A DNA stretch of 64,000 nucleotides from Trypanosoma brucei. Its lineage: Eukaryota. The DNA lies in assembly GCA_000002445.1 (NCBI GenBank), contig CP000066.1, positions 768,001 through 832,000 of the forward strand, in the 5' to 3' direction. The notes beneath the pieces are model-generated. The model did no database searches. It was not told the origin of the DNA and saw only the letters and a list, made by a program, of their open reading frames with translations. This document shows, in pieces, positions 10,755 through 22,604 of this stretch. Both the position numbers and the translations under genes were made by a program. Position 1 is the first letter of the stretch; the number at the start of each line of letters is the position of its first letter.

Positions 10755-13700
10755 TTATTCATCACACGCTTGTCGTAGCCACGCTGGCACGTTTGTCGTT
10801 TCAAACAACATAACCCTTTCCCCTTCACATTCGTCATGCAAAAGTCTGAGGGTGAGCGCAGCGACATGTAATCCCTCCTCTGCAGCGGCTTCATCCGTTT
10901 CTACTCCACAGATTCCCCACCCCTCAGCGGAGACGCTCTCCTTTAAACGGTATAATGATCCAGCCATCAACCCATCCGTGTCGGAGCTGCAAGTTGCCTC
11001 AACAGTCACAGACACCTCTGGGAGCGAGGCTGCCACAACTTCCATCTTGTATGATGTATAGAAGGTTGTGGACAAGAGGGGAATTGATGAAGGTCCCAAC
11101 GGGCACACGCGAAGAAAAATCCTCATCTCCAGCCGCACCGCTTTGGTGGGAATAGAGGATGAAAGGAGCAAAATAAGGCCGGAAGATGACGAGGAAAGAA
11201 GATACGCGAGTGTGTGCATTGGTCCCACGCGGGCCCGCTGTGCAACGGCCCGCGCATACGCATGCGTTGATGTCCCTGAAGGCTTATCCGCAACCGCCAG
11301 CATGCGAGGCAATACCGCCACGAGTGTGTTACACTCCTGTAAAGAACCCTGGGGCATCACAGAACGCAGTGCGAAGGTTTTTGAATTCTCCCTGTTCAAC
11401 TTCTTAGGGACACAACTGGGGTGAAGCCTGAAGTATGACTGAACAAATGCCTTCATCCCACCGTGACGGGCACTTTCAAAGGCAGCCAAGGCATCCTTTG
11501 TCCACTTGACGCGTATCTTGGCGGGACTCGAAGAAGGAAGTGGGGACATCAGTATCCGGTAGATGACATATCTGTTACTCAATGGTTTATCGTCTGGTGG
11601 GAGACGTCCATCAATTAAAAATCGCGTCAGGGAGAGGTACTCCGTCGCTATTTCATGGCTTTCATGTTTCTCCAGAGCATCGCATAGGCTACCCATGATG
11701 CCGTGCGCCTCAGCCGCTAGAAGACAAAGCCGCAACAGCCCCGCGGATCCCCATACGCAGTCTGGAAGTACGCTAAAGAATGTACCTGGTAATGAGCCCA
11801 ATGATGTACGCTGTGCTGCCCGAAGCAATGAAACACAAGAACTAAAATCAACATCCCCCTCAGCGCCTTGAAGAACACACTGAAGAGCATGATGCCAGTG
11901 CCCACCCTCAGCAAATCCCTGCAAAATGAACCGCCGCGACTTGAGTGAAGATGTGCCAAGCCCCAACGGCGCGCCCTCAGTGGAAGCGCACATGACTGCA
12001 TCGGGGGTGCGAGCGCAACGTAACGTTCTGAGAAACTTCTCCGGAACCTCACCATAGGTTTGAGCAACAGTCAACGCAGCCTCCCATGGGGACGATGGCG
12101 GCATCCCGCAGATAACAGAACAAAACAAACGGTGTATCGGTGGAAGCGCAATGGATGCAAACGATGTATAAAAGGCGAGTGCCTCCTTCCAACGCTTCGC
12201 ATCACGCAAGGCATAAATAGTTTGGAGACACGCATCCTGAAGAAACATATCCTCAGCTGTCGTGCGTGGAGGATCGCATGCAGCAATCATATCGACAACA
12301 TCAAGCGCACGCCACCACTGACCCGACCGGCGTGTAGCCTGCCCCAATGCAGAGGCTGTCATGAGCGAGGCGGTTTCATCCTCCCTGTGACTTTCTCGAA
12401 GGAGTTGAAAAAAGACTGAGTTCTTGCCTGCATCACTCAATAGGCGAAGAGCCGTTGGCAGTGTTTCCCGCCAATTTATATCACCACGCCCGATCGACTC
12501 ACTCATGGACCGTAACGCAGTCTCCCACACCAAACTGCGATCAGCCAAAAGCACATCACCGCACTCGTTTTGAAAAGCCAAGGCCTCTTCAGGGCTCCGA
12601 TGAAACAAAACCTGCCGAGAAGCGAAGTAAGCCTCTTCTCCGCCTATGTTCCACAGCACCCGCAATACAGCAGAGCAGTTGCGGGAGGAACCGCCAATTT
12701 TAGCGAGCGCCTCATGGCTCAAAGATGTGCCGCAGCATGCAACAATGTCCGACTGTGTACGAGAATCAACATCAGACATAAGCGACAGCATGTTTCCGAG
12801 ACTCGAGCTAAGCTTAAACAGGCGATACCTGTCGTCCACATCCTCACGATGTTTCACCTCAGTGAAAAGCTGCCGCAACAATTTAGTGTTTCCCTCAGCG
12901 CGGCACCTCTCACCCATACGAAGGATAGATGCAGGTGATACCTTTTTAAATGCCTCTACGGGAACTCCCTCATCCGTTCTAAAAATGAAAGGCCGCAGTC
13001 TATCGGAGACAAGAGGATCAAATGTCCGTCGGATAAAATCTCTTGCATCGATGTTGCCGCAGTGCGCTACATACCAATCCAGAGCGTAAAGAAAAACCCT
13101 ATATTCACGTGCAGTTTCCAATGCTTCTCCACCTCTCATAACACGTAATGCATTCTCCGCATGCATCTTGACACACTCGACCATATCTGGTCGGAAGCTC
13201 GCACCAACAAATGAAGAAGAAAGTACATAAACTATGCATAGCCGCAAAATATATTGTGTGTCTTCCCTCAACACAGACATGGCCCGCTTCTCCCGTAGCC
13301 ACTGAACATTCGATGCAAATGCCAGGACGCGCTTATGTTTATCCCCGTAATAAAGAACTGTAGCCAATAAAGCCGCACTGCGAATGTCCTCCCCCTCATC
13401 AATGTTGCCACAAATGGCAAGTGCCTTATGCCAAAATGACTGACAGTACGGCATCCGGCGCTCGTGCGGTAATGAAAGTGCATTGTTGAGTACCTCCAAC
13501 GCATGTATTGCTGAGCGACGACGGAAACCACTATGTGGGGCTGCGTAGAGTTGTGCCGACAACTCCTTAAGTGCCTTTGACCAGGCTGGCAACTGCGAAG
13601 TGAATAAAGATGAGTTGTTACTAACCTCCAGTTTTAATGGAGGCGATGGCGATAGAGGCACGGTTTCATTCATTGGTTCCATGTGTCTGCCATAAAGCTG

Positions 13701-13814
13701 AAAGAAAACATGTGAATCCGTTGCGATGTGGCAACACCGAGGGCCAATAAGTCGGCTCCCCGTAAATCGCCGCATTACTGCCGGCGCCATGTGTATTACT
13801 AGAGGCATACGCAT
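10755..13814 (-). CDS. Large conserved hypothetical alpha-helical protein; possible mitochondrial helical-repeat (PPR-like) protein
   Basis: The track ORF 10755..14291 begins in low-complexity intergenic sequence. The first plausible ATG is at 13814 (MRMPLVIHMAPAVMRRFTGSRL), an Arg-rich N-terminus with no acidic residues that resembles a mitochondrial presequence. The body is helical with Leu/Ala-rich repeats. I recognise no catalytic motif. Confidence 0.45.
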   Translation of the reverse strand: MRMPLVIHMAPAVMRRFTGSRLIGPRCCHIATDSHVFFQLYGRHMEPMNETVPLSPSPPLKLEVSNNSSLFTSQLPAWSKALKELSAQLYAAPHSGFRRRSAIHALEVLNNALSLPHERRMPYCQSFWHKALAICGNIDEGEDIRSAALLATVLYYGDKHKRVLAFASNVQWLREKRAMSVLREDTQYILRLCIVYVLSSSFVGASFRPDMVECVKMHAENALRVMRGGEALETAREYRVFLYALDWYVAHCGNIDARDFIRRTFDPLVSDRLRPFIFRTDEGVPVEAFKKVSPASILRMGERCRAEGNTKLLRQLFTEVKHREDVDDRYRLFKLSSSLGNMLSLMSDVDSRTQSDIVACCGTSLSHEALAKIGGSSRNCSAVLRVLWNIGGEEAYFASRQVLFHRSPEEALAFQNECGDVLLADRSLVWETALRSMSESIGRGDINWRETLPTALRLLSDAGKNSVFFQLLRESHREDETASLMTASALGQATRRSGQWWRALDVVDMIAACDPPRTTAEDMFLQDACLQTIYALRDAKRWKEALAFYTSFASIALPPIHRLFCSVICGMPPSSPWEAALTVAQTYGEVPEKFLRTLRCARTPDAVMCASTEGAPLGLGTSSLKSRRFILQGFAEGGHWHHALQCVLQGAEGDVDFSSCVSLLRAAQRTSLGSLPGTFFSVLPDCVWGSAGLLRLCLLAAEAHGIMGSLCDALEKHESHEIATEYLSLTRFLIDGRLPPDDKPLSNRYVIYRILMSPLPSSSPAKIRVKWTKDALAAFESARHGGMKAFVQSYFRLHPSCVPKKLNRENSKTFALRSVMPQGSLQECNTLVAVLPRMLAVADKPSGTSTHAYARAVAQRARVGPMHTLAYLLSSSSSGLILLLSSSIPTKAVRLEMRIFLRVCPLGPSSIPLLSTTFYTSYKMEVVAASLPEVSVTVEATCSSDTDGLMAGSLYRLKESVSAEGWGICGVETDEAAAEEGLHVAALTLRLLHDECEGERVMLFETTNVPAWLRQACDE

Positions 13815-14540
13815 ATTTGAAAGGAATGAAAAAGGGGAATAAAAAATCATAAAGTGACGGCGACAAATGAGATGAGTGAATGTGAGGAATAAAAATAAAA
13901 AGGAGGGGAGCCAAGCCGCCGTGATATGGCGGAGAATCGAAGTGGATGATGTCAGCAACAAAAGCAAAGGAAAAAAAGAAAAAGAGAGAAAGAAGAAAAG
14001 CGACGGATAGCAACAAACAAAACGAAAAAAAAAATGAGCAGCCAAATGAAGAACATATGAGCGAGAAGAGTTGGAAAAAAAAAAAGAAAGAAGGTAAATG
14101 ACAGCGGATGACGGTGTGTAAAGGAATTTAAAAAAATTGGGGGAGGTAAGCGCACAAAACGAGTAACTGAGCAGTATTACTCGGTAATGTTCATTGCTAA
14201 AACGAAAGTAAAAAAATATATGGTTTAAAAATAAACAACAAATAGTCTTAAAACTGGGGGAACAAGAGAAAATAGCTGTGTAGACGTACACAAAGTGGGG
14301 AATGTAATTGCGTCCCTTTTCTGTTTACCGCTCTTTTTCCCTCCTGTCGGTGTCTGTTTTTATTTTTATTTTCTCTTCTCTTTCTTTCTCCCCAATCACT
14401 CTCTTGCACGCGAACTCGTATCCATTTCATCCTTACATTACTTTTTATCTTTCCTCTCCCCTTTGAATTCTTGTTTCCCCTCATCCCTCTCGTTTCATTT
14501 CACTCCTGCGTGCCAGTTCCAGACACCTCCGTTATTTTCA

Positions 14541-15010
14541 CTATCATCATTATTGGTGTTATTGTTATTATTATTACTAATGCTTTTCATTACTATCATT
14601 ATTATTATTATTATAGTTATTATTTTCATAACCGCTAATACAATTACGACAACTACCACCACTTTAACTGGCAACAACAGGAGATGAAATATCTTCCCAT
14701 TCCTCCTCCCCATTCCCTCAACTGACGGAAGAAACGCGATGTGACGTAACAACAACCAATCAAAAATAAAACAAAATAAAATGAAACGAAACGAAATGAA
14801 ATGAAATGAAATGGAATGGAATCAGCAGTGATAGTGACGATTATAATTATGATGATGAAAATAAAAATTACTATTACCATTACTACTAGTATTAGTAATA
14901 GTACAGTTACTTTCGTCTATATATGTTGTTACCTGTTTAGTGATATCATTATGTTACCATTATTATCATTATTATTATTATTATTAATATTCGCTATTAC
15001 CATCACCGTT
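14541..15010. repeat. AT-rich satellite-like tract: (ATT/ATTATT)n, (GAAAT/GAAAC)n around 14783-14822, (TTA)n
   Basis: tcattattattattattatagttattattttcat, gaaacgaaacgaaatgaaatgaaatgaaatggaatggaatc and tattattatcattattattattattattaatatt, within a 2.5 kb ORF-free interval. Confidence 0.9.
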
Positions 15011-16856
15011 AGCTTTTACCAAATCATCTTTTATTATTTTTTCCGATTTGTTTTGATACACATTATTTTTTCTTTTTTTTTTATTTTGCTGTTGTTATTG
15101 TTGGTGGTGGTGTTTCTTTTTTTTTCTTTTTTTTTTCCCTCCCCCAATTGTTTTTTAACTTCCCTTCCCCTTCACCCGCTATTTTGTATATATAAACGTA
15201 TGATTAAATATATATACATATATACATACATAAATATATGCATTATTCGTATATAAAGTCATACATACATTTTCATGTATTTTTTATATTCAAATGTATG
15301 CACACAAGTAAAAAAGAGGGAAAAGAGAGGGGACTGAAAAGAATGAAAAAGAAAAAGAAAAAGAATGAAAAAGACCCACGTGTAGGTTATACAAGCACAT
15401 AAGTGTATAAAAACTTTTTTTTTGTTAAGACACGAAAAATAATTTTAAAAGAAAAATAAAAAGAAGGGAAAGCAAATATTTTTTTTTTAAACAAGAAGGA
15501 GGAGCAGCGAGGGGCACAATAAACGATAATAAAAATAATAATAATGTGCCCGCCCTGCGCGTCTTGATGGAGAAGGGGATGAGGAGCAAATAATGATAAT
15601 AATAATAATAATATGAAAGATGGAACTAAACGGTAGAAGCATTTTTAAAAACAAAAACAAAAAAACAAAAAAACAAAAAAAAGGGGGGTTACCACATTGC
15701 TCCAATGCGCACAAGTCATTTCCTTTTCCGCCTCTATTTGCTGCTTTCAAAAAAAAAAAAAGGAAAAAAAGGGAAAAAATGAAAAAAAAAAGGAAAAAAG
15801 AAAAAGTATTTTTGTATTTATATATAAACATAAGAAAGTTTGTTGGTGAACAAAACAAAAACAAAAAAGGTAAAAAAGAAAAAAAGAAAAAGCGAAGGTA
15901 AAGTCAAGCAAAGAAAAAAAAAATCCTAACAGTCGCAGACCGCGTGCTGTGAAACTGAAGAAAAAAAAATTGCCCTGCAAGTAGAGGTGAAACTCAAAGG
16001 AAAAAAAAAAAAGTACAAACGCGCGCGAGAAAGGGAAAAAGATGCGCCCATGTACGACTTTATTGCATTCCGTTTCTGATGCTGCCGCTGATGTTGTTGC
16101 TGTTATTTGATATTAAATCACTTTCTTTCCCTTCTCCGTCCCTAATTATTTGTTCATCCCTCTTTTCTTTTTTTTTATATTTCATCATCTCATGTAGGAT
16201 TTGTTCCTTTATTTATGATTTACCTCTCATTCACACCCTTCCCCCTTCTACTTTCCCACCCCTTTCCCACGAAGAAATACGTGTATATATTTATATATAT
16301 TTATATATATATATATGTTTATATTTACACACGCGCGCAAAACTTTCTCTCTACATTTCTGTCTTTCTTTCTAACAAAAAAAAAAAAGAAATCTTTTTCT
16401 TTATTATCTGTAATGCCTTTTTCTTTTTCACCCTCACGCGTGTGTTGCGGCGCTTACATTTTTCCCCATCCTTCCATCCTTCTTTTTCTTTCCTTCCTTA
16501 AGAAGCATACAATCAGTTATACAACAGATTCACACTACTGCACAAGTGTTTGCCAGAGCACTTTCTGTTTTATTTTATGTTGTTACTAACCTCCAATGAA
16601 GTCTCCCCTTCCCTTCCTCCTTCCAAGCATGCAGAATAATAATAATAATAATGAAAATATCGCGTGTACATATATTTAATTATATATGCCATCATCTTTT
16701 ACTCGCTTTCCCCTACACTCACTGCGGCTCCATTGCTGCCGAAGCATATGTGTTGTGTTTGAAAAGGAGAATTTCACTGATATTATTAACACCCTCATCC
16801 GTAGTACCAGTTAGTGTTCCTTTCGTTTCAAGTGACTTCGTGAGTCCAGCACTAAA

Positions 16857-17771
16857 CTAAAACGGATCCGCTGAGGTTATGGCGTGTCCTTTAGCCATCA
16901 TAGCGGAGCCATCCCCTACGGGGCGCTCAAGTGTTGTTGTTGGAACTGTTGTTGTTGGAACTTGCCATACCGCGCGGTGAAGCCCAGCCCTTGGAGACAC
17001 CACACCCTTTTCTTGAGTGTTTGTGTAACAACGGGTTGGATGGACACCATACGGAATGAAAGGCGTTCCCTCGGGTAGTTGCGCTCCCCGTGCGATTGAA
17101 ATGCCGCCACTCGGTTGATCGAAAGCCTCCACCTGAGGTGCTGCTTGGAGGTTCTGTTGTGAAACCACACCTGCAGTTGGAGCTGTGGATGCCGAACCCC
17201 TGGCAGGAGTGGCTTGTGGCACGCGATAAGGCCCTTGAGAAGTTACGGGTTGGATGATTTGGCCATCAGGCGACATTTGTACAACATGTGTTGAATAATA
17301 TGGGCCCTGAGGCTGGGGATACACTCTTTGCGCCGGCTGAGGCACCTGAAGTGCCGTTTGTTGAAAGTATGGCATTTGCATATACACCATGCGCCCGTTT
17401 TGTGGTGTAAGCATGACAGTCTGAGTCGGCACATGTCCGTGACCAGGTGAGGAAGTCATTCCAACTGTTTGATACGCCGGTGGGTTCACGTAATATGCCG
17501 CTCCACCTGCAGGTGTCATTTGAATAGTTTGCATTGGCGAGGGCGGGGCGGCAGCGGCTTGAATTCCACTCCTCGTTGCCTCCACTGGTGCCGGTGCGGT
17601 TTCATCCCTAATGGTAAAGGAACCGGCAGATGCTCGGAGTGGAGACAGTGGCGGAGCCGGTACTTTCATATTGGGGTCATCCGTTCCAAATACAGTTCGT
17701 TTGCCGTCTGTCGTGGGACAGAGGTGCCAACAGCTCGAAGATTGTAGCATACGAACAAAATCAAAATCCAT
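16857..17771 (-). CDS. Pro/Gln-rich low-complexity protein, hypothetical
   Basis: 304 aa with a true ATG at 17771 (MDFDFVRML). The protein is P/Q/T-rich with repeated YxQ/PQ motifs. No domain recognised. Flanked downstream by an unusual 2.5 kb ORF-free repeat region. Confidence 0.5.
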   Translation of the reverse strand: MDFDFVRMLQSSSCWHLCPTTDGKRTVFGTDDPNMKVPAPPLSPLRASAGSFTIRDETAPAPVEATRSGIQAAAAPPSPMQTIQMTPAGGAAYYVNPPAYQTVGMTSSPGHGHVPTQTVMLTPQNGRMVYMQMPYFQQTALQVPQPAQRVYPQPQGPYYSTHVVQMSPDGQIIQPVTSQGPYRVPQATPARGSASTAPTAGVVSQQNLQAAPQVEAFDQPSGGISIARGAQLPEGTPFIPYGVHPTRCYTNTQEKGVVSPRAGLHRAVWQVPTTTVPTTTLERPVGDGSAMMAKGHAITSADPF

Positions 17772-19224: not shown

Positions 19225-21954
19225 TCAAGGACCCACCGACGCATTTGCAGCTGCCACCCTAAGTTGCAAAACAGCCGCATCAGCATGCCCCTGAAGGATT
19301 TCATTACTGCGTGCAGCGCTACCGGACCGCAGCTGCTGCCGCCGCTGTCGCAGCAACTCGGCAGCCTCGGTGATCATCGCCTCACGCTCAGCAAGCGTGG
19401 AGCGCAGTCGTCGGTGCTTTTCTTCGTGATCATGATTGAGTCCGCCACCTACACGCATCGCCCTCACATGCAGCAGAAGGTCATCCATTTCAGAATACTT
19501 CCGTACAAGTCGGTCATCCCCATCCCACCGACTAGGAGATGTTGAAGAGTTCAATGCACGGCGAATGGGAGTACTTAACGCATTATCCCTCTGGGGTATC
19601 ATCGCGTCTCGCTCACTTGACCTGAATGGAGGTGGTTTTTCAATCCTAATCTCAGGCACCGAAGCTACACATCTTGACGGAGCTATTTGGTGCTGATCAA
19701 ATCTATCAATACGTCCACCCTTCTCAGCAGGACACGCACTGTGGCTGTAACCTACTTTCCCAGAAGAAGGTGCCGACGAATAGTCATGCTGTGTTGGGGC
19801 GTCAAGAAACCTCGGTGTATATTCTAATCCTGCAACTCCATTTACCCGTTCTTTGGTACCCGTTGACCCCGTGCAACGCCCCAACTCCAAACGAAATGGT
19901 CTATCCTTCCCGTGCAAGTGATCCACCCGTCCCTCACTCATGGCTCGCGGTTCCTCTAACGCCCCTGATAACACGTCTCGCCCTTCCACCGATGTGTTTA
20001 TCGGACTTACGTAGCGGTGGTCATCGACTCCATGATAACGACGTAGCAAGTTATGTGTCTCACCTATTTGTTGCCTCTCCCTGCTTTCCCCATGGTTGGA
20101 AACGACTGAGGTGGAAAGAACGGGTGGGTTTGCCATCGCGGCATACTTCGACCGCAGGGCCCGGAGGTTCCGTGAAGGCTCCACAATACCTGGAAACAGC
20201 TGCTGAACCTGATTAAAGAGCGGGATAACAACAGAATCTAGAAACGCAATTTGCGACCGCCCAACGGATGTCGGGAGATCGAAACCGGGAGTAACGGGAA
20301 GACCGCGGCGGCGCTCCTCCTGTGCTTGCGCGGCGTGTTCCTCCGTGAGCACAAGCCATTTTGCTGCGATGTCTGCACCACGACTAATCACACCAAAGTC
20401 GGCTGCCAGAAGAAGGAGAGAGAGGGCATCTACCCTATCGTCAGGAGCACCGTAGTCGAAGCCGCCCTCTCGTGCTTTTGCTCGCCAGTGCTCTAAATGG
20501 TCCTCCAACACTGCGGTGTCTGTTCGGCAAATGAGTTTTGACACGATAGTCTTGAACCTTAGGAATGACTCATCATTCATACGACAGGTGAAATTGAGCT
20601 CTGGCACCTCCACTAGCTGAAAAGCAGTGGCCACATGCATTTGTTCAAGGGTACCAGGGCCGGGGTAACGATAGCACAGCGGGTCGCACGTCCGCACCAA
20701 AAACTCATTCGTACGCCCCGGGTGCCGGACGTCAAGTGCAACCGCTGCAAAAACAAGGGCTTTCAACTCCACAAGCGTCACGTGTCTCATGAGTGGCTTT
20801 GTGGCGGAGGCAAGCGAGAAAACAGCCTGCACCACATCCGCCGCGCGCACTGCGTTATGGAAAGGATTTGGTCTGTAATTATTTTCTATAGCTGCCACCA
20901 TGTGGCACCACCTTTGCATCTCTTCCTCTGAGGCAAACATCTTCCACCGCGTGACAACCTCGGCCGCTACCGTCTGCAGTGCAGAAGGTACAAGTGAGGC
21001 GACCTCTAGAGTATCAAACCCCCAGTCACTGAAATCGATGCCTTCACACAATGCAACCTGCAGTTTTGTTGGGACAACGGTCAGTATCGTGGCATGTACT
21101 ATAGACGGATGAGAATAACGTGCCGACATCGGGGCCGAAGATGACGAACGGACCATCTCGAGAGATTTTTGCTCTTGCCTAGGTTGTACAACCTCCCCCG
21201 CGCCATCCGTGCCGCCCCTCTGTGGGTTTTGAGCAGCCTGCTCCTTAATCTGGGTTTGCGTGGCAATTTGGTGCACCTTTCGCTGCGCACCTTCTGCATG
21301 CCCTTGAAATTCTTGCAGTTTACTGCTCAGAGCGCTGTTTTCCCTTTTGAGTCTGCTTATCTCATCTTGGAGTTTGCCAACTACTCGACCTCCCTCATTT
21401 GTTTTTTCTGCTTGCCCAACAAACGGCACGGACGGTGCCTTCTCCTCCCGCACGGTATCGACGGTGGATTCCTGCTTGCGCACGGAGGCATTGCGCTGCT
21501 GAAGTACCCTTGGGCTAGGTAACGGTGCTTTTCGCTCTAAATTAACCTTTTCCGTCGCATTCATTCGCATCTTAGCGTCTGGAACCCTCAAATGTGCATC
21601 CACAACCACGCGATCAGATGATGTATCTGAGGGCGGTTGCACCTTTGTCGCGGTACGGATGCGTGATAGTTTTGACGACACGTTTGGAACGGCGTAAAGC
21701 GGAAGCACATTCAACGCGGTACTGTCCCTGTCGCTACGTAGCATAAGGAAACAGCTCACACAGACTTGGAAAGGCCTGTCTCCGGAAAAAATGACACATT
21801 CCGTCTGCACACACTGGGAGCAGCACAACTTGGAGCAGCACGGACACACAGTCTTCGGTGTAGATGATGTAAATACTTTTCCACACGTGGGACAGTCGTA
21901 GTCCTTCTGCGAAAATCTTCCACAGGGGGAGTGCGAACCGTCGTAGCACACCAT
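19225..21954 (-). CDS. PDEC: FYVE-variant cyclic-nucleotide phosphodiesterase-like protein (PDEC-type architecture) with degenerate metal-binding residues
   Basis: First ATG at 21954 (MVCYDGSH...). The N-terminal Cys cluster CPTCGKVF...CPCCSKLCCSQCV...QVCVSCF forms a zinc finger of FYVE-variant type. Coiled-coil segments follow. The PDEase_I catalytic region aligns to PDE4: FHNAVRAADV (YHNxxHAADV), LDVRHPGRTNEFLV (HDVDHPGVSNQFLI), AADFGVISRG (CADLSNPTKP) and SQIAFLDSVVIPLF (SQVGFIDYIVHPLW). Confidence 0.7.
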   Translation of the reverse strand: MVCYDGSHSPCGRFSQKDYDCPTCGKVFTSSTPKTVCPCCSKLCCSQCVQTECVIFSGDRPFQVCVSCFLMLRSDRDSTALNVLPLYAVPNVSSKLSRIRTATKVQPPSDTSSDRVVVDAHLRVPDAKMRMNATEKVNLERKAPLPSPRVLQQRNASVRKQESTVDTVREEKAPSVPFVGQAEKTNEGGRVVGKLQDEISRLKRENSALSSKLQEFQGHAEGAQRKVHQIATQTQIKEQAAQNPQRGGTDGAGEVVQPRQEQKSLEMVRSSSSAPMSARYSHPSIVHATILTVVPTKLQVALCEGIDFSDWGFDTLEVASLVPSALQTVAAEVVTRWKMFASEEEMQRWCHMVAAIENNYRPNPFHNAVRAADVVQAVFSLASATKPLMRHVTLVELKALVFAAVALDVRHPGRTNEFLVRTCDPLCYRYPGPGTLEQMHVATAFQLVEVPELNFTCRMNDESFLRFKTIVSKLICRTDTAVLEDHLEHWRAKAREGGFDYGAPDDRVDALSLLLLAADFGVISRGADIAAKWLVLTEEHAAQAQEERRRGLPVTPGFDLPTSVGRSQIAFLDSVVIPLFNQVQQLFPGIVEPSRNLRALRSKYAAMANPPVLSTSVVSNHGESRERQQIGETHNLLRRYHGVDDHRYVSPINTSVEGRDVLSGALEEPRAMSEGRVDHLHGKDRPFRLELGRCTGSTGTKERVNGVAGLEYTPRFLDAPTQHDYSSAPSSGKVGYSHSACPAEKGGRIDRFDQHQIAPSRCVASVPEIRIEKPPPFRSSERDAMIPQRDNALSTPIRRALNSSTSPSRWDGDDRLVRKYSEMDDLLLHVRAMRVGGGLNHDHEEKHRRLRSTLAEREAMITEAAELLRQRRQQLRSGSAARSNEILQGHADAAVLQLRVAAANASVGP

Positions 21955-22604
21955 TACCTGAAGTTTAAGAAAAAAAAGGGCGTGCGGCAACGGTCACAGT
22001 TCAGTATATTACCTGAGTGTACTGGAAGCGCAGTGAGATGCGTAGCCATAGCAGAAAGAGGTGGTAAGGGGGAAAACGAAGAAAGTACCAAGAAAGAAGA
22101 TAAGAAGCAACATTCCAAAGGCACAGAACACACTGCTATGTCATTCAAGAAAAAGAGAATTTTTTTTAAAAAAAGCGTATTTGCGCCAGTTTGTTTGTGC
22201 GCACGTATATGTGTATGTGTGTATTCGCGGATCATGTGCTCACTCGATGAGCGCCATTAGAACAACTGTTAATACGCGCCCAGTCGCACAGTGGCACGCA
22301 CATGTGCATATCCAGCAAACTATGTTGACTGACACAAAAGACAAGTGTAGACCCAGAAGCAAGAGGAAACAAAAACAGTAGGGAAACTCCAGCTTTCCGG
22401 AAACCATCAGAGGAAATTGCTATTACAAAACAGCAGAAAGGAAAAATAATAGAAGAAATAGGGGAAAGGAGTGACGAAATGAAAAGTAAGCAGGGGGAAA
22501 TGGACATGCGTCAACGTACCGTTGTCTATCCACACCAGACCTCTCGCTTTCATTTACTACTTGTCGCCAACAACATCTGTTCGTAACAAAGATCCGCCAA
22601 GGCT

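What the first reader, a model, noticed from the sequence alone, without database searches (positions are those of the whole stretch)
19225..21954. PDEC-type phosphodiesterase whose Zn-ligand histidines appear substituted (possible pseudo-PDE)
The catalytic region aligns well with class-I PDEs, and the Q-switch glutamine (SQIAFLD) and the general-acid His of the YHN motif (here FHN) are conserved. In my alignment, however, HAADV is RAADV and HDVDH is LDVRH. In PDE4 numbering, His164 becomes Arg and His200 becomes Leu, while the Asp201 and Asp318 equivalents are retained. Two of the four Zn ligands would be missing, which predicts loss or strong alteration of catalytic activity. Together with the FYVE-variant zinc finger and coiled coils, this could be a scaffolding or regulatory pseudo-enzyme rather than an active PDE. 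I could also be mis-aligning by eye.
Basis: inference. Interest (0 to 1): 0.55.

Follow-up and report, generated by a model that had tools for sequence, protein, structure and literature searches.

The report
Zinc-ligand-deficient PDEC of African trypanosomes
The Trypanosoma brucei gene called phosphodiesterase C keeps the enzyme's fold and is still under strong selection, but it has lost two of the four residues that hold the catalytic zinc, so it is probably a non-catalytic "pseudo-enzyme" rather than the fifth cAMP-degrading enzyme it is usually counted as.

Summary
Window 19225-21954 (minus strand) is the single-copy T. brucei PDEC gene, 909 aa and 100% identical to TREU927. A profile alignment anchored on PDE4D2 and the T. 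cruzi PDEC crystal sequence puts Arg370 at Zn-ligand His164 and Leu407 at His200. Phe365 sits at Tyr159 and Thr480 at Met273. The other six metal-pocket residues, the glutamine switch and the Phe clamp are retained.

T. congolense carries the same substitutions. The syntenic T. vivax orthologue and 14 other trypanosomatid PDECs keep the histidines at both Zn-ligand positions. The change therefore arose once, on the T. brucei + T. congolense stem.

The gene is not decaying:
- The PDE-like domain is 71% identical between the two species, against 27-39% in the linkers.
- Its root-to-tip divergence equals that of T. vivax.
- Within T. brucei it shows 1 non-synonymous to 6 synonymous polymorphisms (pN/pS 0.055).
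- The predicted fold matches TcrPDEC (TM 0.82).

The best reading is a conserved pseudo-phosphodiesterase with a scaffolding or nucleotide-sensing role. Loss of activity is inferred, not shown. No accessible paper mentions this, and several reviews list PDEC among the "five PDEs" of T. brucei.

The parts
19225..21954 (-). Complete PDEC coding sequence (909 codons plus stop), Tb927.3.3070-type gene
   Evidence: ORF. 100% identical to T. brucei TREU927 XP_843900.1. Synteny with T. vivax: RTEL1-like helicase, kinase, PDEC, then a ~300-aa ORF.
21739..21897 (-). FYVE-like zinc finger, aa 20-72. All eight Zn-cysteines are present. The PI3P-binding motif R(R/K)HHCR is replaced by PKTVCP and the WxxD tryptophan by Phe.
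   Evidence: Pfam FYVE E 0.0028, 18.1 bits, below the 27.8-bit cut-off. Sequence read. Orthologues outside T. brucei/T. congolense reach the Pfam FYVE annotation.
21232..21414 (-). Predicted coiled-coil segment, aa ~181-241
   Evidence: Only weak, sub-threshold Pfam coiled-coil-type hits (Leu_zip, SlyX, APG6_N). The motif LQDEISRLKRENSALSSKLQEF is conserved with T. congolense.
20125..21129 (-). Class-I PDE-fold domain, aa 276-610 (catalytic-like domain)
   Evidence: PF00233 E 8e-44. Aligns to 3v93 over aa 276-609. AF2 model pTM 0.81 with Foldseek TM 0.82 to 3v93/3v94.
20860..20862 (-). Phe365 (TTC) at the position of invariant Tyr159 of the YHN motif
   Evidence: T. vivax has TAC.
20845..20847 (-). 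Arg370 (CGC) at the position of Zn ligand His164
   Evidence: T. vivax has CAT. This is a single second-position change.
20734..20736 (-). Leu407 (CTT) at the position of Zn ligand His200, the H of the HD dyad
   Evidence: T. vivax has CAT.
20515..20517 (-). Thr480 at the position of invariant pocket residue Met273 (Tyr in T. congolense)
20242..20253 (-). Retained nucleotide-recognition residues Gln568 (Q-switch) and Phe571 (hydrophobic clamp), in SQIAF
19228..19554 (-). Conserved C-terminal helical/coiled-coil module, aa 801-909
   Evidence: 58% identical between T. brucei and T. congolense, against 27% for the preceding segment. Alignment.

Best explanation
This is the T. brucei orthologue of kinetoplastid phosphodiesterase C. 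Its class-I PDE domain has been turned into a pseudo-enzyme.

On the branch leading to T. brucei + T. congolense, after T. vivax split off, four otherwise invariant active-site residues were replaced by single-nucleotide changes. Two of them are Zn ligands: His164->Arg370 and His200->Leu407. The others are Tyr159->Phe365 and Met273->Thr/Tyr. With half of the protein ligands of the catalytic zinc gone, and the HD dyad now LD, hydrolysis of cAMP/cGMP should be abolished or reduced by orders of magnitude (inferred).

The rest of the domain is kept under purifying selection (shown): the fold, six of the eight metal-pocket residues, the glutamine switch and the Phe clamp. So are the Zn-finger cysteines and the C-terminal coiled coil.

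The most likely mode of action is therefore non-catalytic. The protein would be a membrane- or organelle-tethered, oligomerising protein whose PDE-like pocket still binds a nucleotide (cAMP, cGMP or AMP) or a partner protein, acting as a sensor, buffer or scaffold (inferred). Arg370 plausibly fills the empty metal site and pairs with Asp408 and Asp519 or with the ligand phosphate (speculative).
For: Shown:
- Identity and architecture.
- Arg and Leu at the H164 and H200 columns in pairwise and profile alignments anchored on verified PDE4D2 numbering.
- The Giardia PDE paper PMC5617230 names exactly these eight residues (H, H, H, D, H, E, H, D) as the strictly conserved metal-binding pocket of class-I PDEs. 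T. brucei PDEC has six of the eight.
- The same R/L/F state occurs in T. congolense and in all six T. brucei-group sequences. H/H/Y occurs in T. vivax (syntenic locus), T. cruzi, T. grayi, T. theileri, T. melophagium, Leishmania, Leptomonas, Phytomonas, Angomonas and five unnamed kinetoplastid sequences.
- Ten substitutions are shared-derived in T. brucei and T. congolense at sites invariant in six other trypanosomes. Four of them hit residues that are also invariant in eight more distant PDECs and in PDE4D2.
- Constraint between species: T. brucei vs T. congolense identity is 71% with one gap in the PDE domain, against 27-39% in the linkers. T. grayi vs T. melophagium, which have intact histidines, show the same contrast (73% vs 28-40%).
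- No rate acceleration: distance from the salivarian node is 0.31 (T. brucei) and 0.35 (T. congolense), against 0.32 for T. vivax.
- Constraint within T. brucei: 1 non-synonymous to 6 synonymous segregating sites in the domain (pN/pS 0.055, binomial P 0.0013 against neutrality). The flanks show 6 to 4 (pN/pS 0.47).
- The fold is retained: pTM 0.81, TM 0.82 to TcrPDEC.
- The His-bearing T. cruzi orthologue is a demonstrably active PDE. It complements PDE-deficient yeast, and its knockout raises cAMP.
Against: - No activity, metal-content or binding measurement exists for this protein in anything I could read. Inactivity rests on the known role of the residues.
- Six of the eight metal-pocket residues remain, including both Asp ligands and the general-acid His. 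A rearranged or single-metal site with residual activity cannot be excluded.
- Purifying selection is also what an active enzyme would show.
- The polymorphism sample is small: six sequences and 17 segregating sites. The domain-versus-flank contrast is not significant on its own (Fisher P 0.13).
- Interspecific dN/dS could not be computed, because no T. congolense DNA was on record.
- One T. b. equiperdum assembly carries two frameshifts in the gene. If real, the gene is dispensable in at least one lineage.
- Pocket residues M273, F340 and the L319 equivalent are altered, so nucleotide binding is not assured.
Confidence: 0.68

Rival explanations
1. It is still an active cyclic-nucleotide phosphodiesterase. 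The metal centre has been rebuilt from the remaining ligands (Asp408, Asp519, His366, His411, Glu437, His440), or uses only the second (Mg/Mn) site. Arg370 would supply the positive charge that polarises the phosphate.
For: Six of the eight metal-pocket residues, the general-acid His, the Q-switch and the clamp are retained. The domain is under strong purifying selection with no rate acceleration. The open literature lists PDEC among the five PDEs of T. brucei without comment.
Against: His164 and His200 are invariant in about 95% of 182 aligned PDE domains. Besides the T. brucei and T. congolense PDEC sequences themselves, almost all exceptions are degenerate extra (mostly N-terminal) domains of multi-domain PDE proteins. 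The exception among them is P0038, where the degenerate domain is the principal one. These two histidines are among the eight 'strictly conserved' metal-pocket residues (PMC5617230). Arg and Leu cannot coordinate a metal. Two more invariant active-site residues (Y159, M273) changed on the same branch, which looks like release of catalytic constraint at the site itself.
Confidence: 0.14
2. The gene is a relic on its way to loss. Its ancestral job was control of cAMP at the contractile vacuole complex, as in T. cruzi. That job disappeared with the organelle in salivarian trypanosomes, and the active site was the first part to decay.
For: T. cruzi PDEC acts at the contractile vacuole complex, and T. 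brucei is stated to have lost that organelle (PMC13340794). The zinc finger of T. brucei and T. congolense has also drifted below the Pfam FYVE threshold. The T. b. equiperdum assembly GCA_003543875.1 has two 1-bp deletions in this gene and none in the neighbouring coding sequences.
Against: - The 909-codon ORF is intact in TREU927, T. b. gambiense, three Logan assemblies and, as a 950-aa product, T. congolense.
- The domain is 71% identical across the T. brucei/T. congolense split, against 27-39% for the linkers.
- pN/pS is 0.055.
- There is no acceleration relative to T. vivax.
- The equiperdum indels may be long-read assembly errors, and that parasite no longer passes through tsetse.
Confidence: 0.08
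3. The domain has been neofunctionalised into an enzyme with a different chemistry or substrate. The remodelled pocket (Arg370, Leu407, Phe365, Thr480 and His at the F340 position) would serve a new reaction.
For: The active-site changes are concentrated and fixed in two species, while the surrounding pocket is conserved. Selection is strong.
Against: Position 273 differs between the two species (Thr vs Tyr), and so does the N321-equivalent position (Val vs Ala). That argues against a precisely tuned new site. No precedent was found, and nothing in the sequence points to a specific new substrate.
Confidence: 0.1

Closest known systems
Trypanosoma cruzi PDEC (TcrPDEC / TcPDEC2; PDB 3v93, 3v94)
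   Same: It is an orthologue. It has the same architecture: an N-terminal FYVE-type zinc finger, coiled coils, a centrally placed class-I PDE domain and a C-terminal helical region. The catalytic domain is 57% identical, with E 3e-117 and TM 0.82.
   Different: TcrPDEC has all eight metal-pocket residues and is an active PDE. It complements PDE-deficient yeast, and its knockout raises cAMP. It works at the contractile vacuole complex, an organelle reported lost in T. brucei. T. brucei PDEC has Arg, Leu, Phe and Thr at H164, H200, Y159 and M273.
Trypanosoma vivax PDEC (KAG8347631.1)
   Same: It is a syntenic salivarian orthologue: RTEL1-like helicase, kinase, PDEC, then a ~300-aa ORF. It is 55% identical in the domain. 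It shares some salivarian changes, for example the His before the AAD motif replaced by Val.
   Different: It keeps Tyr159, His164, His200 and Met273. It is therefore the closest presumably active relative and the natural comparator.
Human PDE4D2 and other class-I PDEs (Pfam PF00233, HD superfamily)
   Same: The same 16-helix fold, with general-acid His, Asp201, His204, Glu230, His233, Asp318, Gln369 and Phe372 equivalents.
   Different: T. brucei PDEC lacks two of the four Zn ligands. The PDE signature HD(x)xH reads LDVRH.
Degenerate N-terminal PDE domains in tandem-PDE proteins of diplonemids and a heterolobosean (Diplonema japonicum P0043, D. ambulator P0046, Artemidia motanka P0102, Percolomonas-cluster P0052)
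   Same: These are PDE-fold domains that have lost metal ligands. The D. japonicum domain 1 carries the same Arg/Leu pair at H164/H200.
   Different: Those domains are far more degenerate: E230, H233 and the T271/D272 region are also lost. They sit upstream of an intact catalytic domain in the same polypeptide. T. brucei PDEC is a stand-alone protein with a surgically altered site. Their function is unknown.
Canonical PI3P-binding FYVE domains (e.g. EEA1)
   Same: The same spacing of eight zinc-binding cysteines and the GKxF turn. The register against EEA1 is recalled from memory.
   Different: The R(R/K)HHCR motif is PKTVCP and the WxxD Trp is Phe. The Pfam score of 18.1 is below the 27.8 cut-off. 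The basic motif is missing in all trypanosomatid PDECs examined.

Membership tests
Class-I cyclic-nucleotide phosphodiesterase (Pfam PF00233 PDEase_I) | Profile match above the curated gathering score | tested here: met
   150.5 bits against a cut-off of 24.8, aa 365-591 covering profile positions 1-232 of 238.
Class-I cyclic-nucleotide phosphodiesterase (Pfam PF00233 PDEase_I) | All-helical PDE catalytic fold | tested here: met
   AF2 pTM 0.81. Foldseek TM 0.82 to TcrPDEC and 0.69-0.76 to human PDE1/3/4/9.
Class-I cyclic-nucleotide phosphodiesterase (Pfam PF00233 PDEase_I) | Eight strictly conserved metal-pocket residues (PDE4D2 H160, H164, H200, D201, H204, E230, H233, D318), as listed for class-I PDEs in PMC5617230 | tested here: not met
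   Six of eight are present. H164 is Arg370 and H200 is Leu407.
Class-I cyclic-nucleotide phosphodiesterase (Pfam PF00233 PDEase_I) | PDE signature motif H-D-[LIVMFY]-x-H-x-[AG]-x(2)-[NQ]-x-[LIVMFY] (PROSITE pattern, recalled from memory) | tested here: not met
   The sequence reads L-D-V-R-H-P-G-R-T-N-E-F and fails only at the first His. T. vivax HDVRHPGRSNGF fits.
Class-I cyclic-nucleotide phosphodiesterase (Pfam PF00233 PDEase_I) | Invariant purine-scanning glutamine and hydrophobic clamp | tested here: met
   Gln568 and Phe571 are present. The I336 equivalent is Leu.
Class-I cyclic-nucleotide phosphodiesterase (Pfam PF00233 PDEase_I) | Hydrolysis of cAMP and/or cGMP | not testable with these tools
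   No assay data for the T. brucei or T. congolense protein in any paper held.
Kinetoplastid PDEC orthogroup | Orthology: best reciprocal similarity, gene tree matching the species tree, and conserved gene order | tested here: met
   The top PDB hit is TcrPDEC. The NJ tree recovers (T. vivax,(T. brucei,T. congolense)) within Trypanosoma. Synteny with the T. vivax locus L002. Named PDEC, single copy, in PMC2689650.
Kinetoplastid PDEC orthogroup | Architecture: N-terminal FYVE-type finger, coiled coils, and a central rather than C-terminal PDE domain | tested here: met
   Finger at aa 20-72, coiled-coil hits at aa ~181-241, PDE domain at aa 276-610 and about 300 aa of C-terminal extension. The architecture is described for TcPDEC in PMC13340794.
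Canonical FYVE domain (PF01363) | Pfam gathering score and the PI3P-binding motifs WxxD, R(R/K)HHCR and RVC | tested here: not met
   18.1 bits against a cut-off of 27.8. The motifs read RFSQKD, PKTVCP and QVC. The eight Cys are retained.
Pseudo-enzyme (catalytically dead homologue retained by selection) | Clear homology to an enzyme family, with loss of residues essential for catalysis | tested here: met
Pseudo-enzyme (catalytically dead homologue retained by selection) | Retention under purifying selection after the loss | tested here: met
   71% vs 27-39% identity between T. brucei and T. congolense. No rate acceleration relative to T. vivax. pN/pS 0.055, P 0.0013. The sample is small and interspecific dN/dS was not obtainable.
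Pseudo-enzyme (catalytically dead homologue retained by selection) | Experimentally demonstrated lack of catalytic activity | not testable with these tools
   Requires a recombinant-protein assay or yeast complementation.

The most novel reading that the evidence does not exclude
T. brucei/T. congolense PDEC is a cyclic-nucleotide receptor made from a dead phosphodiesterase. Arg370 occupies the vacated zinc site and clamps the cyclic phosphate, as the conserved arginine of CNB-domain phosphate-binding cassettes does. Gln568 and Phe571 still read the base. Ligand binding is passed on through the coiled coils and zinc finger to a membrane compartment. The same Arg/Leu solution in the dead N-terminal PDE domain of a Diplonema protein would then be a convergent way of stabilising a metal-free PDE pocket. 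My own knowledge, not checked in the papers read here, is that trypanosome PKA is reported to be cAMP-independent; if so, this would supply one of the missing cAMP effectors of African trypanosomes.
Probability: 0.2. Interest if true: 0.8.

Novelty: new variant of a known kind. Interest (0 to 1): 0.5.

Why it matters
T. brucei is routinely described as having five cAMP phosphodiesterases, and PDEs are pursued as trypanocidal drug targets. If PDEC of T. brucei and T. congolense cannot hydrolyse cyclic nucleotides, several things follow:
- The catalytic repertoire is four enzymes.
- Inhibitor and knockout phenotypes from T. cruzi PDEC cannot be transferred to African trypanosomes.
- PDEC becomes a candidate non-catalytic cAMP-binding or scaffolding component, in organisms whose cAMP effectors are largely unknown.

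It also offers a clean natural experiment. T. vivax keeps the histidines and T. brucei/T. congolense do not. That allows study of how an HD-superfamily enzyme turns into a pseudo-enzyme by a few single-nucleotide changes, and whether this is tied to loss of the contractile vacuole complex.

Tried and rejected
- **Word-indexed protein search.** It recalled few orthologues (9, 2 and 1 hits) and gave no further salivarian species such as T. simiae, T. godfreyi or T. evansi. The exhaustive representative search supplied T. vivax and the wider set instead.
- **T. congolense DNA.** It is not on record, so interspecific dN/dS and branch-site tests were not possible. T. brucei vs T. vivax would be saturated at synonymous sites and was not attempted. 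I substituted domain-versus-linker identity, a relative-rate comparison and within-species pN/pS.
- **Literature on the T. brucei protein.** Searches for TbrPDEC, TbPDEC, Tb927.3.3070, the old gene ID and 'pseudophosphodiesterase' found nothing about it.
- **Papers not held.** The TcrPDEC structure paper (looked up by DOI and by PMC3320927), a guessed PMC id for a Seebeck PDE-inhibitor review (PMC3164761), PMC12981958 and the RIT-seq paper are not held. I could not read the Kunz 2005 FEBS J paper on TcrPDEC or the kinetoplastid PDE nomenclature note either. An earlier remark on TbrPDEC inactivity in closed-access work cannot be excluded.
- **Supplement searches.** Searches for Tb927.3.3070 in the TrypTag and Dejung 2016 proteomics papers returned nothing. 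I therefore have no localisation, expression or fitness data.
- **Model coordinates.** They are not exposed, so the geometry of Arg370 relative to Asp408 and Asp519 could not be measured.
- **Rejected: sequencing error or strain artefact.** The same residues occur in six T. brucei-group sequences and in T. congolense.
- **Rejected: mis-alignment.** Pairwise and profile alignments agree, with flanking invariant residues in register.
- **Rejected: a second, active PDEC paralogue.** None appeared in the exhaustive search, and the gene is described as single-copy in PMC2689650.
Full report
**What is there.** The finding's coordinates hold one long minus-strand ORF, 19225..21990 from a TTG. The ATG at 21954 gives 909 aa. 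The product is 100% identical to the annotated 'putative 3',5'-cyclic nucleotide phosphodiesterase' of Trypanosoma brucei brucei TREU927 (XP_843900.1), on a 1.65-Mb contig. PMC2689650 names this single-copy gene PDEC. All ORFs over 200 aa between 10.7 and 32 kb lie on the same strand, as expected for a trypanosome polycistronic unit. The neighbours are a protein kinase and an RTEL1-like helicase upstream and a 304-aa ORF without Pfam match downstream. The same order occurs at the T. vivax locus.

**Architecture.** Pfam gives PDEase_I (PF00233) at aa 365-591, E 8e-44. It gives a sub-threshold FYVE hit at aa 20-72 (18.1 bits against a 27.8 cut-off) and weak coiled-coil-type hits around aa 181-241. 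The finger keeps all eight zinc cysteines but reads PKTVCP where canonical FYVE domains have R(R/K)HHCR. The best solved structure is the T. cruzi PDEC catalytic domain 3v93, E 3e-117 over aa 276-609. An AlphaFold model of aa 276-612 (pTM 0.81) superposes on 3v93/3v94 with TM 0.82 and on human PDE1/3/4/9 with TM 0.69-0.76.

**Checking the observation.** The phmmer alignments to TcrPDEC and to human PDE1B already show NPFHNAVRAADV against NPYHNAIHAADV, and AAVALDVRHPG against AALTHDVCHPG. To get crystal numbering I verified a PDE4D2 sequence against 1oyn and 5wh6, where chain residue 1 is residue 79. I then aligned it, TcrPDEC and all retrieved PDE domains to one profile.
- Changed in T. brucei: Phe365 at Y159, Arg370 at H164, Leu407 at H200, Thr480 at M273 and His at F340.
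- Retained: His366 (H160), Asp408 (D201), His411 (H204), Glu437 (E230), His440 (H233), Thr478/Asp479 (T271/D272), Asp519 (D318), Gln568 (Q369) and Phe571 (F372).

[quoted passage not shown] This protein has six. Across 182 aligned PDE-domain rows the two columns are His in 165 and 164 (8 and 5 rows have a gap). Five of the non-His rows at each position are the T. brucei and T. congolense PDEC sequences themselves. Almost all the others are degenerate extra domains of multi-domain PDE proteins.

**When it happened.** T. congolense PDEC carries the same Phe, Arg and Leu. An exhaustive profile search of 1.84 billion representatives added T. vivax PDEC (KAG8347631.1). T. vivax is syntenic and retains Tyr, His, His and Met. 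T. cruzi, T. grayi, T. theileri, T. melophagium, Leishmania martiniquensis, Leptomonas, Phytomonas, Angomonas and five unnamed kinetoplastid sequences all have His at both Zn-ligand positions. A neighbour-joining tree of the domain recovers (T. vivax,(T. brucei,T. congolense)). The changes therefore arose once, on the T. brucei + T. congolense stem. Each is a single second-position nucleotide change relative to T. vivax: TAC->TTC, CAT->CGC and CAT->CTT. Ten substitutions are shared-derived in the two species at sites invariant in six other trypanosomes. Four of them hit positions that are also invariant in eight more distant PDECs and in PDE4D2. The remodelling was focused on the active site.

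**Dead gene or retained protein?** Four lines of evidence favour retention.
- The ORF is intact in TREU927, T. b. gambiense, three independent Logan assemblies and T. congolense.
- Since the T. brucei/T. congolense split, which postdates the loss, the PDE-like domain has stayed 71% identical with one gap. The linkers are 27-39% identical and the C-terminal helical module 58%. The His-bearing pair T. grayi/T. melophagium shows the same contrast, 73% against 28-40%.
- The distance from the salivarian node is 0.31 for T. brucei, 0.35 for T. congolense and 0.32 for T. vivax, so losing the ligands did not speed up the domain.
- Among six T. brucei-group sequences the domain has 1 non-synonymous and 6 synonymous segregating sites (pN/pS 0.055, binomial P 0.0013 against neutrality). 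The flanks have 6 and 4 (pN/pS 0.47). The direct domain-versus-flank contrast is not significant (Fisher P 0.13), and the sample is small.

Together these results argue against a decaying pseudogene and for a protein whose PDE fold is still needed.

**One discordant observation.** In the T. b. equiperdum assembly GCA_003543875.1 the gene carries two 1-bp deletions, at codons 285 and 625. The neighbouring helicase, kinase and 304-aa ORFs have none in the same 8.7 kb. The annotation there splits the gene into 220-aa and 238-aa fragments. This may be long-read assembly error. It may also be real inactivation in a parasite that no longer cycles through tsetse. I could not decide between the two.

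**How it most likely works.**
- Established knowledge: in class-I PDEs the Zn ion is held by H164, H200, D201 and D318. The bimetal centre activates the attacking hydroxide, and these histidines are part of the invariant HD-superfamily motif.
- Inference: with Arg and Leu at two ligand positions the zinc site cannot form as in active PDEs, so cAMP/cGMP hydrolysis should be lost or drastically reduced.
- Shown: the rest of the pocket, including the glutamine switch and Phe clamp, and the fold are conserved under selection.
- Inference: the protein acts non-catalytically, as a nucleotide-binding sensor or buffer or as a scaffold. It would be positioned by the zinc finger and oligomerised by the coiled coils.
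- Speculation: Arg370 fills the metal site electrostatically, pairing with Asp408 and Asp519 or with the ligand phosphate. I could not measure this because model coordinates are not exposed.
- Context: T. cruzi PDEC is an active enzyme at the contractile vacuole complex, and T. brucei is reported to have lost that organelle (PMC13340794). This gives a plausible reason for release of the catalytic constraint. Whether T. vivax fits that correlation is unknown.

**Rivals.**
- An active enzyme with a rebuilt metal site (0.14) is compatible with the selection data. It is disfavoured by the near-universal invariance of the two histidines and by the simultaneous loss of Y159 and M273.
- A relic on its way to loss (0.08) is supported only by the contractile-vacuole argument, the drifting zinc finger and the equiperdum frameshifts. 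The conservation data contradict it.
- A new enzymatic activity (0.10) cannot be excluded, but two pocket positions differ between the two species.

**Comparison with what is known.** The gene is a member of the kinetoplastid PDEC orthogroup by similarity, tree, synteny and architecture. It belongs to the class-I PDE fold family by profile and structure. It fails two defining catalytic features: the eight-residue metal pocket and the HD signature. Filing it as 'a phosphodiesterase' in the functional sense is therefore not justified by sequence. The nearest analogues of a metal-ligand-deficient PDE domain that I found are the degenerate N-terminal domains of two-domain PDE proteins from diplonemids and a heterolobosean. 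One of them, in Diplonema japonicum, has the same Arg/Leu pair. Those domains are much more degenerate and are fused to an intact domain.

**Novelty and limits.** None of the papers I could search or read comments on the catalytic residues of T. brucei PDEC. Several, up to 2026, list it among the PDEs or PDE subfamilies of T. brucei. Key closed-access sources were not available: the TcrPDEC structure paper, the Kunz 2005 FEBS J paper on TcrPDEC, the kinetoplastid PDE nomenclature note and a Seebeck review on PDE inhibitors. An earlier remark cannot be excluded. I rate this a new variant of a known kind, a lineage-specific pseudo-enzyme form of PDEC. It is of moderate interest, and of higher interest if the protein proves to be a cAMP receptor.

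Noticed in passing
L001:3791-6518 (T. b. equiperdum GCA_003543875.1), equivalent to window 19225-21954: The PDEC ORF is interrupted by two 1-bp deletions. One is at gene position 855 (codon 285), TATAGTA->TAT-GTA, not in a homopolymer. The other is at position 1874 (codon 625), GGG->GG. It is annotated as two fragments of 220 and 238 aa. No indels occur in the neighbouring coding sequences within the same 8.7 kb. This is either real pseudogenisation in a tsetse-independent parasite or a long-read assembly error.
   Followed up: partly
Proteins P0043, P0046, P0102, P0052/P0165, P0029, P0042: Long proteins from diplonemids (Diplonema japonicum, D. ambulator, Artemidia motanka), from a Percolomonas-containing cluster and from unnamed metagenome sequences carry two PDE domains. 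The N-terminal one is degenerate at the metal ligands. Domain 1 of D. japonicum has the same Arg/Leu pair at H164/H200 as T. brucei PDEC. Their function is unknown.
   Followed up: partly
window 14000-16800: An AT-rich stretch (GC 0.31 over 14001-16000, against about 0.47 for the window). It is full of short A/T-rich microsatellites and lies between the minus-strand ORFs 10755-14291 and 16857-17771. It is probably an unusually long intergenic/UTR region.
   Followed up: no
window 16857-17771 (-) and 10755-14291 (-): Two sizeable ORFs (304 aa and 1178 aa) flanking the AT-rich stretch have no Pfam match at E <= 0.001. The 304-aa ORF has a positional counterpart of 321 aa downstream of PDEC in T. 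vivax.
   Followed up: no
window 21739-21897 (-), zinc finger of PDEC; alignment A1: The FYVE-type finger of all trypanosomatid PDECs examined lacks the basic R(R/K)HHCR PI3P-binding motif. In T. brucei and T. congolense it has diverged further: 46% identity to T. grayi, against 74% between T. grayi and T. melophagium, with the WxxD Trp lost. It falls below the Pfam FYVE threshold. The targeting module therefore changed on the same lineage as the active site.
   Followed up: partly
P0002 (T. congolense PDEC), N-terminus: The deposited T. congolense protein has a 55-residue N-terminal extension not seen in any orthologue. It is probably an upstream start-codon mis-call in that annotation.
   Followed up: no
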